The position numbers and the translations under genes are program-made. Source: Escherichia phage slur01. From it: a stretch of DNA of 61,235 bases. Within the stretch, counting starts at the first letter, position 1. Every line of letters starts with the position of its first letter. This document shows positions 40,181-40,448 of this stretch, piece after piece. The stretch lies in sequence record NC_028831.1. One strand, written 5' to 3'. The notes under the pieces are model-generated. The model made no database searches and was not told the origin of the DNA. It was given only the letters and a program-made list of their open reading frames with translations.

Positions 40181-40216
40181 TAAATAATTAACCCCTCAAA
40201 CGAGGGGTTAATTTTC
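40181..40216. terminator. Bidirectional rho-independent terminator
   Basis: TTAACCCCTC-AAAC-GAGGGGTTAA hairpin flanked by A-rich and T-rich runs between convergent genes. Confidence 0.75.
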
Positions 40217-40448
40217 AATAATCAATCACACAGTTTGAAGGTGAGCCAATTCGTCGGTATTCGTGATCAATTTCATGGCACCATTGCCCAGTCATTGGAA
40301 GCTTTTCGGTATCATAAATTAAAGAACCGTTACCATCGCGATCCAAAGGTTTTGGAATAACGCCGGAATTTGGTTTACCAGTATTTAAACCATTACCACA
40401 TGCAGTGAGGGACAAACATAATGCCAGCATAATTAGAGCGTGTTTCAT
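40215..40448 (-). CDS. Lipoprotein, candidate Llp/Cor-like receptor-masking superinfection-exclusion protein
   Basis: Signal peptide with lipobox MKHALIMLALCLSLTAC|G; 77 aa; antisense between the gpJ-like and fibre genes. Confidence 0.55.
   Translation of the reverse strand: MKHALIMLALCLSLTACGNGLNTGKPNSGVIPKPLDRDGNGSLIYDTEKLPMTGQWCHEIDHEYRRIGSPSNCVIDY

What the first reader, a model, noticed from the sequence alone, without database searches (positions are those of the whole stretch)
40215..40448. Antisense lipoprotein between the gpJ-like and tail-fibre genes: candidate receptor-masking superinfection-exclusion factor
A 77-aa protein with a typical lipoprotein signal and lipobox (LTAC|G) is the only minus-strand gene inside the plus-strand morphogenesis block and is flanked by terminators. 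T5 Llp and the Cor proteins of T1 and phi80, small lipoproteins encoded next to receptor-binding genes, block the outer-membrane receptor (FhuA) and prevent superinfection. If analogous, this gene also points to which receptor the phage uses.
Basis: partly seen in the sequence, partly recalled or inferred. Interest (0 to 1): 0.6.

Follow-up and report, generated by a model that had tools for sequence, protein, structure and literature searches.

The report
LamB-linked phage superinfection-exclusion lipoprotein

Summary
The 77-aa ORF at 40215..40448 (-) exists exactly as described, with the lipobox LTAC|G. It has an AAGGAG ribosome-binding site, a conserved sigma-70-like promoter and one bidirectional terminator shared with gpJ, not two flanking terminators.

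The window is a Seuratvirus genome. The protein is 96-100% identical to lipoproteins of Seurat, CAjan, KS_A3 and BASEL phages Bas21, Bas23 and Bas24. It is under strong purifying selection (dN/dS 0.03-0.19).

It belongs to PHROG 12984, not to the Cor/Llp family (PHROG 1119) or the Rtp45 family (PHROG 4281).

It is 55% identical to Lpp010 (mEp010 gp116). Plasmid-expressed Lpp010 excludes the LamB-dependent phages mEp010, mEp044, mEp554 and lambda (PMC11893012).

BASEL phages Bas21, Bas23 and Bas24, whose gpJ C-termini are 97-99% identical to the window's, use LamB. Bas22, which also carries the lipoprotein, does too.

In every lineage examined where a J gene lies nearby, the gene sits antisense directly after a J with a shared ~150-aa C-terminal extension.

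Best reading: a LamB-directed superinfection-exclusion lipoprotein that is functionally analogous to Llp/Cor but not homologous to them.

The idea was already suggested for Bas23 (PMC9586334). How it acts on LamB is unknown. Interest is low to moderate.

The parts
40215..40448 (-). Lipoprotein gene: 77 codons plus stop (TGA at 40215-40217). Member of phrog_12984 and orthologue of the Seurat, CAjan and Bas21-24 'lipoprotein'.
40401..40448 (-). Signal peptide, residues 1-16 (MKHALIMLALCLSLTA). The lipobox L14-T15-A16-C17 spans 40398-40409.
   Evidence: Read directly from the sequence. The lipobox Cys is invariant in 27 family members.
40218..40400 (-). Mature lipoprotein: 61 aa, 6.7 kDa, pI 5.5. 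N-terminal acylated Cys17, Gly at +2 (predicts sorting to the outer membrane). Invariant motifs are PNSGV (26-30), TE (47-48) and GQWC (54-57), plus Cys73. Cys57 and Cys73 are a candidate intramolecular disulfide.
   Evidence: The disulfide and the localisation are inferred, not shown.
40454..40459 (-). Shine-Dalgarno sequence AAGGAG, 5 nt upstream of the ATG.
   Evidence: Sequence. Conserved in Bas21, Bas22 and 9g.
40485..40512 (-). Sigma-70-like promoter candidate: TTGACT, 16-nt spacer, TATATT (10 of 12 matches), ending 37 nt upstream of the ATG.
   Evidence: Both hexamers are conserved in Bas21 and Bas22; only the -10 hexamer is conserved in 9g. This is a consensus match, not proof of function.
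40186..40213 (.). Bidirectional intrinsic-terminator hairpin AATTAACCCCTC-GTTT-GAGGGGTTAATT. It serves convergent gpJ (+) and the lipoprotein gene (-).
   Evidence: Phage 9g has the equivalent 'H1 loop' annotated and mEp010 has terminator T18 at the same place.
37046..40180 (+). gpJ-like central tail fibre / tail tip protein, 1044 aa. Homologous to lambda J up to about residue 939.
39728..40177 (+). C-terminal ~150-aa extension of gpJ, the putative LamB-binding domain. It is present in every J that is followed by this lipoprotein. It is absent from J of VogelGryff (LptD) and T1 (FhuA).
   Evidence: LamB dependence of Bas21, Bas23 and Bas24, which carry this allele at 97-99% identity, comes from BASEL Table S5. 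Bas22, also LamB-dependent, carries a divergent allele of the same extension.
40519..43617 (+). Lateral tail-fibre gene, divergently transcribed from the lipoprotein gene. The likely start is the ATG at 40532.

Best explanation
The gene encodes a LamB-directed superinfection-exclusion (lytic-conversion) lipoprotein. The proposed course of events is below, with each step marked as inferred or shown.

1. Host RNA polymerase transcribes the gene from its own sigma-70-type promoter, independently of the convergent and divergent tail genes (inferred).
2. The 77-aa precursor is exported, acylated at Cys17 and cleaved by signal peptidase II. Because residue +2 is Gly, the Lol system sends it to the inner leaflet of the outer membrane (inferred from the established lipoprotein sorting rules).
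3. The 61-aa mature protein is probably stabilised by a Cys57-Cys73 disulfide. It engages the maltoporin LamB, the terminal receptor recognised by the C-terminal domain of this phage's gpJ.
4. This engagement makes LamB unusable for productive infection.

The benefit for a virulent phage would be twofold. The infected cell would be protected from secondary infection, and progeny would not be wasted on LamB in cell debris, as with T5 Llp.

What is shown: a homologue excludes LamB-dependent phages, including the unrelated lambda. What is inferred: this orthologue does the same. Direct binding to LamB, binding at its periplasmic face, and a block at adsorption rather than at a later step are also all inferred.
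For: **Homology to a tested excluder.**
- BLASTP gives 55% identity over the whole mature protein (64% by global alignment) to Lpp010, gp116 of mEp010 (E=8e-32).
- Both proteins fall in phrog_12984.
- Plasmid-expressed Lpp010 excluded the LamB-dependent phages mEp010, mEp044 and mEp554, and also lambda (PMC11893012).

**The receptor of near-identical phages is LamB.**
- Bas21, Bas23 and Bas24 have the lipoprotein at 96-99% and the last 300 aa of gpJ at 97-99% identity to the window. Bas22 has the lipoprotein at 84% overall and 97% in the mature part.
- All four are listed as LamB-dependent, and lamB complementation was shown for Bas22.
- A 2026 preprint links distal GpJ domains to LamB targeting.

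**Conserved cassette.** The arrangement 'J, terminator, antisense lipoprotein' recurs in these lineages:
- Seuratvirus
- Nonagvirus 9g
- Dhillonvirus EP23
- the Drexlerviridae Enterobacter phage AS5
- the temperate mEpimmI phages
- a Salmonella lambda-like prophage
- the E. coli Nissle prophage

All of these J proteins share the C-terminal extension. The J proteins of LptD- and FhuA-specific phages lack it.

**The partner looks like a conserved host component, not J.**
- Mature lipoproteins average 74% identity, while the adjacent J C-terminal domains average 46%. The two are uncorrelated (rho 0.24).
- For example, the window and Bas22 compare at 97% for the lipoprotein and 36% for the J domain.
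- Lpp010 also excludes lambda, whose J tip is barely alignable.

**Strong purifying selection.** dN/dS is 0.03-0.19.

**Same architecture and genomic position as proven exclusion lipoproteins.** Shared features are about 60 mature residues, a lipid-anchor Cys and a conserved Cys pair. The comparators are T1 cor (antisense after the receptor-binding locus), T5 Llp with FhuA and Rtp45 with LptD.

**The lysis role is already filled.** A separate o-spanin is present at 21578..21883.

**The literature already reads the Bas23 orthologue this way.** (PMC9586334.)
Against: - The window's protein has not been tested directly. The tested homologue is only 55% identical (64% in the mature part).
- For Lpp010 only plating and spot exclusion was measured. 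There were no adsorption, binding or localisation experiments (the paper contains zero occurrences of 'adsorption').
- Lpp010 failed to exclude the LamB-dependent phage mEp013.
- LamB is a plug-less trimeric porin with no known allostery. How a periplasmic lipoprotein could alter its phage-binding surface is unexplained, and van den Berg et al. raise this question explicitly.
- E. coli Nissle carries a 96%-identical copy, yet lambda still binds to its LamB (PMC5987069). If that copy is expressed, this argues against a simple block of adsorption.
- AlphaFold2 gave no confident fold (pLDDT 64 and 50), so no structural support was obtained.
- The promoter is only a consensus match. The region has 6 promoter-like sites against 2.7 +/- 1.7 in shuffles.
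Confidence: 0.72

Rival explanations
1. The protein excludes LamB-dependent phages at a step after adsorption. The phage would still bind LamB, but the lipoprotein would prevent the triggering of DNA ejection or the passage of the tail-tip and tape-measure conduit and the DNA through the outer membrane and periplasm. It might do this by occupying the periplasmic mouth of LamB. This is a variant of the best explanation with a different mechanism.
For: - E. coli Nissle has a 96%-identical copy next to a LamB-type J. It is fully lambda-resistant through an 'unidentified factor', yet it binds and inactivates lambda via LamB, and more so when induced with maltose (PMC5987069).
- LamB has no plug or known allostery (discussion in PMC9586334).
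- The authors of the mEpimmI paper leave both options open: 'interfere with DNA ejection ... or block the host receptor'.
Against: - Expression of the Nissle copy is not documented. Nissle also has a prophage repressor, which that study showed to confer partial protection against lambda.
- A post-adsorption block would not protect the progeny of a virulent phage from debris, which is the benefit usually invoked for Llp and Cor (PMC11990801).
- The two structurally solved precedents, Llp and Rtp45, both abolish binding of the receptor-binding protein.
Confidence: 0.2
2. One reading: a Cor/Llp-family lipoprotein that inactivates FhuA, implying that the phage uses FhuA.
For: - The size, the lipobox, the Cys pair and the position next to the receptor-specificity locus are similar. 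T1 cor is likewise antisense after the receptor-binding genes.
Against: - T1 Cor and T5 Llp both hit phrog_1119 (E=3e-30 and 1e-19). The window protein does not; it hits phrog_12984 at E=5e-57.
- hhalign aligns only residues 1-21, the signal peptide.
- A family profile finds nothing in the PDB, which holds Llp as 8a60 and 7qjf.
- Near-identical phages are LamB-dependent, not FhuA-dependent.
Confidence: 0.03
3. The protein is a lysis protein (an o-spanin, Rz1-like) or another lipoprotein with a structural or assembly role in the tail.
For: - It is a small outer-membrane lipoprotein.
- There is a weak hit to a spanin PHROG (phrog_11621, E=0.043), confined to residues 2-32.
- It is located within the tail gene block.
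Against: - The phage has a complete lysis cassette elsewhere. It comprises endolysin, holin, a LysB-like i-spanin and an overlapping proline-rich o-spanin at 21578..21883, which matches phrog_456 at E=3.5e-14.
- The 77-aa gene is antisense to the tail operon, with its own promoter-like site and terminator.
- It does not co-vary with the adjacent J domain.
- The homologue acts alone from a plasmid to exclude phages.
Confidence: 0.03

Closest known systems
Lpp010 (gp116, type-C lipoprotein) of temperate E. coli phage mEp010, in the mEpimmI group (PMC11893012)
   Same: - Same PHROG (12984).
- 55% identity overall and 64% in the mature part.
- Identical invariant motifs: PNSGV, DTEKLP.TGQWC and RRIGSPSNC.
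- Same antisense position directly after J, with a shared terminator.
- The adjacent J carries the same type of C-terminal extension.
- The host phage is LamB-dependent.
   Different: - It comes from a temperate, non-lambdoid phage rather than a virulent Seuratvirus.
- It has a 3-residue insertion after the lipid Cys, and residue +2 is Ala rather than Gly.
- Its J C-terminal domain is only 36% identical to the window's.
- Exclusion has been demonstrated for Lpp010 only.
T5 Llp and T1/phi80/N15 Cor (phrog_1119), the FhuA-inactivating lytic-conversion / superinfection-exclusion lipoproteins
   Same: - A precursor of about 75-77 aa with a lipobox.
- A mature protein of about 60 aa with a conserved Cys pair.
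- Encoded beside the receptor-binding determinant, with its own promoter. T1 cor is antisense after the receptor-binding locus.
- The expected role is the same: disabling the phage's own outer-membrane receptor.
   Different: - There is no detectable sequence homology beyond the signal peptide.
- The target is a TonB-dependent transporter with plug-mediated 'reverse allostery'. LamB is a plug-less trimeric porin.
- The Llp fold is solved (7qjf, 8a60), whereas no confident model was obtained here.
Rtp45 and SE_Oeko (phrog_4281), the LptD-directed exclusion lipoproteins of small siphophages (bioRxiv 10.1101/2025.07.07.663478)
   Same: - A lipoprotein of about 6 kDa with an intramolecular disulfide.
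- Encoded in the cassette downstream of gpJ in small siphophages.
- It is a precedent for a periplasmic lipoprotein blocking a receptor that is not a TonB-dependent transporter, by distorting extracellular loops.
   Different: - It belongs to a different PHROG.
- hhalign gives only 72% probability, driven by the signal peptide, and the Cys residues do not align.
- It accompanies a separate receptor-binding gene (rtp44), whereas here the receptor-binding function appears fused to J.
- Its target is LptDE.

Membership tests
phrog_12984 / Lpp010-type (type-C) LamB-associated exclusion lipoproteins | Full-length sequence match to the family profile. | tested here: met
   phrog_12984 at E=5.2e-57, covering residues 1-77 of 77 profile positions. 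Lpp010 hits the same PHROG at E=1e-26. BLASTP to Lpp010 gives 55% identity, E=8e-32.
phrog_12984 / Lpp010-type (type-C) LamB-associated exclusion lipoproteins | Lipobox Cys plus the conserved core motifs PNSGV, TEKLP.TGQWC and NC, including two further invariant Cys. | tested here: met
   Alignment of 27 members. Invariant positions are C17, P26, N27, S28, G29, V30, T47, E48, G54, Q55, W56, C57, N72 and C73.
phrog_12984 / Lpp010-type (type-C) LamB-associated exclusion lipoproteins | Encoded antisense immediately downstream of a gpJ that carries the shared ~150-aa C-terminal extension. | tested here: met
   Searches show the synteny. Searches show the shared J C-terminal domain. It is absent from VogelGryff (LptD) and T1 (FhuA).
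phrog_12984 / Lpp010-type (type-C) LamB-associated exclusion lipoproteins | The host phage uses LamB as its terminal receptor. | not testable with these tools
   Inferred from the literature on near-identical phages: Bas21-24 are LamB-dependent (BASEL Table S5) and mEp010 is LamB-dependent.
phrog_12984 / Lpp010-type (type-C) LamB-associated exclusion lipoproteins | Expression alone excludes LamB-dependent phages. | not testable with these tools
   Shown only for Lpp010 (PMC11893012). A plating experiment is needed for this orthologue.
Cor/Llp family (phrog_1119) | Sequence membership: a profile match over the mature domain. | tested here: not met
   No phrog_1119 hit at E<=1, while T1 Cor and T5 Llp hit it at 3e-30 and 1e-19. 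hhalign aligns residues 1-21 only. The family profile finds no PDB sequence at E<=10, although Llp is present in the PDB.
Cor/Llp family (phrog_1119) | Small outer-membrane lipoprotein with an intramolecular disulfide. | tested here: inconclusive
   The lipobox and two invariant extra Cys are present. The disulfide and the localisation are not demonstrable in silico, and the AlphaFold2 models have low confidence.
Cor/Llp family (phrog_1119) | Targets FhuA, with the phage being FhuA-dependent. | tested here: not met
   Near-identical phages are LamB-dependent. The homologue excludes LamB-dependent phages.
Cor/Llp family (phrog_1119) | Llp-like fold. | tested here: inconclusive
   AlphaFold2 gave pLDDT 64 (full length) and 50 (mature part). 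Foldseek against the PDB gave no hit at E<=0.001.
Rtp45-type LptD exclusion lipoproteins (phrog_4281) | Sequence membership. | tested here: not met
   Rtp45 hits phrog_4281 at E=1e-32, and the window protein does not. hhalign gives 72% probability with low-confidence columns outside the signal peptide.
o-spanin (Rz1-like) | Proline-rich outer-membrane lipoprotein encoded within or next to the i-spanin gene in the lysis cassette. | tested here: not met
   The real o-spanin is at 21578..21883 (phrog_456, E=3.5e-14) and overlaps the LysB-like ORF 21244..21720. The 77-aa gene lies 18.3 kb away, is not proline-rich and has no spanin hit beyond its signal peptide.

The most novel reading that the evidence does not exclude
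This would be the LamB-specific representative of a third family of phage exclusion lipoproteins, unrelated in sequence to the other two (phrog_12984, against Cor/Llp and Rtp45). It would disable a plug-less, non-allosteric trimeric porin by a mechanism unlike Llp's 'reverse allostery'. One possibility is that it plugs or grips the periplasmic mouth of LamB and blocks a step after adsorption. It would then cross-exclude every LamB-dependent phage, including lambda. The near-identical copy in the E. coli Nissle 1917 prophage could be the 'unidentified factor' behind that probiotic's complete lambda resistance despite normal lambda binding.
Probability: 0.3. Interest if true: 0.55.

Novelty: already known. 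Interest (0 to 1): 0.28.

Why it matters
The gene is a practical genomic marker. A phrog_12984 lipoprotein placed antisense after gpJ predicts LamB as the terminal receptor, across at least six small-siphophage and prophage lineages.

It also predicts cross-exclusion between otherwise unrelated LamB-dependent phages. That matters when designing phage cocktails and when interpreting resistance conferred by prophages, for example in E. coli Nissle.

The open scientific point is not whether the gene exists or what kind of function it has, since both are already in the literature. The open point is how a 6.7-kDa lipoprotein can disable a porin that has no plug and no known allostery.

Tried and rejected
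- **Pfam and NCBIfam:** only sub-threshold hits to lipoprotein signal peptides (LptM and similar). Rejected as uninformative.
- **PADLOC:** no hit.
- **AlphaFold2:** run on the family alignment with the full-length protein (pLDDT 64) and with the mature part only (pLDDT 50). Neither model was usable.
nothing below E=3.
- **Family profile against PDB sequences:** zero hits at E<=10.
- **Exhaustive profile search of 1.84 billion cluster representatives:** only 4 hits. Three are family members (one of them a frameshifted allele). The fourth is a 4467-aa repeat protein that matches a short D.NGD...PGEGTW motif nine times (E=1.6e-7), which I judged a motif-level coincidence.
- **hhalign against T1 Cor, T5 Llp and Rtp45:** the Cor and Llp alignments cover only the signal peptide. 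The Rtp45 alignment is driven by it and its mature-part columns have low confidence.
- **Second terminator upstream of the gene:** none found.
- **Sequence similarity between the last ~105 aa of gpJ and the lambda J receptor-binding tip:** phmmer finds none beyond residue ~939. BLASTP gives only 24% identity over ~130 aa. LamB usage therefore rests on experiments with near-identical phages, not on homology to lambda J.
- **Literature search for a discussion of gp69 in the phage 9g paper:** returned irrelevant papers.
- **Spanin hypothesis:** rejected after the true o-spanin was located.

Full report
**1. The observation**

The ORF at 40215..40448 on the minus strand is exactly as described. 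It encodes 77 aa: MKHALIMLALCLSLTAC|GNGLNTGKPNSGVIPKPLDRDGNGSLIYDTEKLPMTGQWCHEIDHEYRRIGSPSNCVIDY. The N-terminus is a textbook lipoprotein signal with the lipobox L-T-A-C.

The gene lies between a 1044-aa gpJ homologue (37046..40180, +) and a 1032-aa lateral tail-fibre ORF (40519..43617, +). It is the only credible minus-strand gene in the plus-strand block from about 17.6 to 45.7 kb. Annotated relatives have the same map.

An AAGGAG Shine-Dalgarno sequence lies 5 nt before the ATG. A sigma-70-like site (TTGACT-16-TATATT, 10 of 12 matches, 40512..40485) ends 37 nt upstream. Both hexamers are conserved in Bas21 and Bas22.

Only one terminator-like hairpin exists (40186..40213). It is bidirectional and shared with gpJ. 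No second hairpin flanks the 5' side, so 'flanked by terminators' is only half right.

**2. What the window is**

The region 39000..42000 is 98.8% identical to phage Seurat and 97.5% identical to KS_A3. The window is a Seuratvirus genome (Queuovirinae), circularly permuted relative to CAjan.

**3. The gene is real and constrained**

- It matches phrog_12984 ('lipoprotein') end to end (E=5e-57).
- tblastn finds it in 42 phage records.
- A search of 5.8 billion proteins finds 29 clusters.
- An exhaustive profile search of 1.84 billion representatives adds essentially nothing. The family is therefore small and restricted to phages and prophages of Enterobacteriaceae.
- An alignment of 27 members shows an invariant lipobox Cys, PNSGV, TE, GQWC, and a second Cys near the C-terminus.
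- dN/dS for the mature part is 0.03-0.19, with synonymous sites close to saturation.

**4. It is not Cor or Llp**

- T1 Cor was taken from the T1 record. T5 Llp was confirmed as 100% identical to the T5 record. Both fall in phrog_1119, 'Cor superinfection exclusion protein'. The window protein and Lpp010 fall in phrog_12984.
- Profile-sequence alignment to Cor and Llp covers only the signal peptide.
- A family profile finds nothing in the PDB, although Llp is there as 8a60 and 7qjf.
- Rtp45, the LptD-directed exclusion lipoprotein, belongs to yet another PHROG (4281) and aligns only weakly.
- AlphaFold2 gave no confident model (pLDDT 64 and 50) and Foldseek found nothing. Similarity of fold remains untested.

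**5. What it is related to**

The 55%-identical homologue in mEp010 (BLASTP E=8e-32) is mEp010_116, also called gp116 or Lpp010. It lies antisense directly after host-specificity protein J, with a shared terminator.

Fernandez-Ramirez and colleagues expressed Lpp010 from a plasmid. It excluded the LamB-dependent phages mEp010, mEp044 and mEp554, and unexpectedly also lambda. It did not exclude the LamB-dependent phage mEp013 (PMC11893012). No adsorption or binding experiments were reported.

**6. Which receptor**

- BASEL Table S5 lists Bas21 GottfriedDienst, Bas22 KurtStettler, Bas23 WildeMaa and Bas24 SeppeHuegi as LamB-dependent. It lists the Seuratvirus Bas25 VogelGryff as LptD-dependent. 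lamB complementation was shown for KurtStettler.
- Bas21, Bas23 and Bas24 carry the lipoprotein at 96-99% identity and the last 300 aa of gpJ at 97-99% identity to the window.
- VogelGryff has a shorter J (879 aa). In place of the lipoprotein it has a 321-aa antisense gene.
- A 2026 preprint independently links distal GpJ domains to LamB targeting.

**7. The cassette**

The arrangement 'J, then antisense lipoprotein' recurs in these lineages:

| Lineage | Example |
|---|---|
| Seuratvirus | this window, Bas21 |
| Nonagvirus | 9g |
| Dhillonvirus | EP23 (gene unannotated in the record) |
| Drexlerviridae | Enterobacter phage AS5 |
| mEpimmI temperate phages | mEp010 |
| Salmonella lambda-like prophage | locus L007 |
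| E. coli Nissle prophage | locus L013 |

All of these J proteins share a ~150-aa C-terminal extension ending in ...RG(S/T)GS(F/W)(S/T). The J proteins of VogelGryff and T1 stop before it, and lambda J aligns only weakly.

The mature lipoprotein is much better conserved than the neighbouring J domain (mean 74% against 46% identity). The two do not co-vary (rho 0.24). The window and Bas22 compare at 97% for the lipoprotein and 36% for the J domain.

This pattern, together with the exclusion of lambda by Lpp010, points to a conserved host partner rather than to J. LamB is the obvious candidate.

**8. Mechanism**

By the standard lipoprotein rules (established knowledge), Cys17 is acylated and Gly at +2 sends the protein to the outer membrane. 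The two further invariant Cys residues suggest an intramolecular disulfide, as in Llp and Rtp45.

Two structures show small periplasmic lipoproteins binding the periplasmic face of the receptor and distorting its extracellular loops: Llp with FhuA and Rtp45 with LptDE. By analogy I propose the same for LamB. That step is inference.

There are three caveats.
- LamB has no plug or known allostery.
- The LamB-dependent phage mEp013 escapes Lpp010.
- E. coli Nissle carries a 96%-identical copy beside a LamB-type J. It is completely lambda-resistant, yet still binds lambda through LamB (PMC5987069).

The last point keeps a post-adsorption block alive as a rival explanation.

**9. Other rivals**

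A spanin role is excluded. The lysis cassette lies elsewhere and includes an overlapping proline-rich o-spanin at 21578..21883 (phrog_456, E=3.5e-14). A chance ORF is excluded by the conservation and the dN/dS values.

**10. Novelty**

Identical proteins are already in GenBank, in KS_A3 and KS_S4. The BASEL paper places 'cognate superinfection exclusion proteins' in this locus. Van den Berg et al. (2022) state that LamB-targeting phages 'e.g., Bas23 ... likely do have SE lipoproteins'. A homologue was shown to exclude LamB-dependent phages in 2025.

The finding is therefore real and correctly sensed in kind. What remains open is the mechanism on LamB.

About 1% of complete E. coli genomes (50 of 5426) carry a homologue, always on the chromosome.

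Noticed in passing
window 20214..21883 (+): The phage's lysis cassette. It comprises an endolysin ORF (20214..20882), a holin-like ORF (20919..21263), a LysB-like i-spanin (21244..21720) and an overlapping proline-rich o-spanin lipoprotein (21578..21883; MPTSKLILMSVFLMICAGC|STEIQPPPPP...; phrog_456, E=3.5e-14). The window therefore encodes two lipoproteins with different roles.
   Followed up: partly
L013:5890-6123 (E. coli Nissle chromosome NZ_CP148105.1, 2214452-2214685): E. coli Nissle 1917 carries a 96%-identical copy of the lipoprotein (74 of 77 residues). 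It lies antisense after a 1308-aa J whose C-terminal domain is 84% identical to 9g and 72% to LamB-dependent KurtStettler. Nucleotide identity in the mature part is only 89% (dS 0.6), so this reflects long-term constraint rather than recent transfer. A published study reports complete lambda resistance of Nissle through an unidentified prophage factor, although lambda still binds its LamB (PMC5987069).
   Followed up: partly
L010:3980-4222 (Shigella phage EP23, NC_016566); also phage PNS1 (NC_073063): The lipoprotein gene is present (74-75% identity to the window's) but is not annotated in these RefSeq Dhillonvirus records. The space between the J gene and the tail-fibre gene is left empty.
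   Followed up: partly
L005:3293-3511 and L006:2212-2430 (E. coli contigs encoding P0027): A 72-aa family member (56% identity) lacks a canonical lipobox (…VAIALCCTAFANTNEPNSGV…). It sits among small genes with no J within 3 kb. It may be a soluble periplasmic or 'moron' version of the family.
   Followed up: no
P0020 (74 aa; 29 contigs, including a 5.1-Mb E. coli chromosome): A frameshifted allele. It matches the family up to about residue 54 and then diverges (…LPMTGSGVTRLITNTDESVALLTVL), losing both C-terminal Cys residues. It is probably a decaying prophage copy.
   Followed up: no
window 39278..40177 compared with KS_S4 and SHIN8 (rows H3 and H15; rows H90 and H91): KS_S4 and SHIN8 have an extra ~111 bp in the C-terminal region of gpJ (their match spans 1011 nt against 900). 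Over that region they are only 87% identical, while their lipoproteins are 99-100% identical. This is further evidence that the J tip and the lipoprotein recombine independently.
   Followed up: no
window 41452..41860 (within the lateral tail-fibre gene): A ~400-bp segment of the lateral tail-fibre gene is 88.5% identical to the tail-fibre gene of the T5-like Salmonella phage SP01 (117.8 kb). This indicates mosaic exchange of fibre modules between unrelated siphophages (rows H24 and H25).
   Followed up: no
L004:3828-4793 (phage VogelGryff, Bas25): In the LptD-dependent Seuratvirus, the slot between J and the lateral tail fibre holds a 321-aa antisense gene and J is 165 aa shorter. The whole unit of J tip plus accessory gene is the swappable receptor cassette. 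No small lipoprotein is annotated there.
   Followed up: partly
P0031 (4467-aa metagenomic protein): The family profile matches nine tandem repeats (…TDANGDITSVTVPGEGTWTVDP…) at positions 32-63, with a summed E-value of 1.6e-7. It resembles the DGNGSLIYDTEKLPMTGQWC core. I judged it a short-motif coincidence.
   Followed up: no
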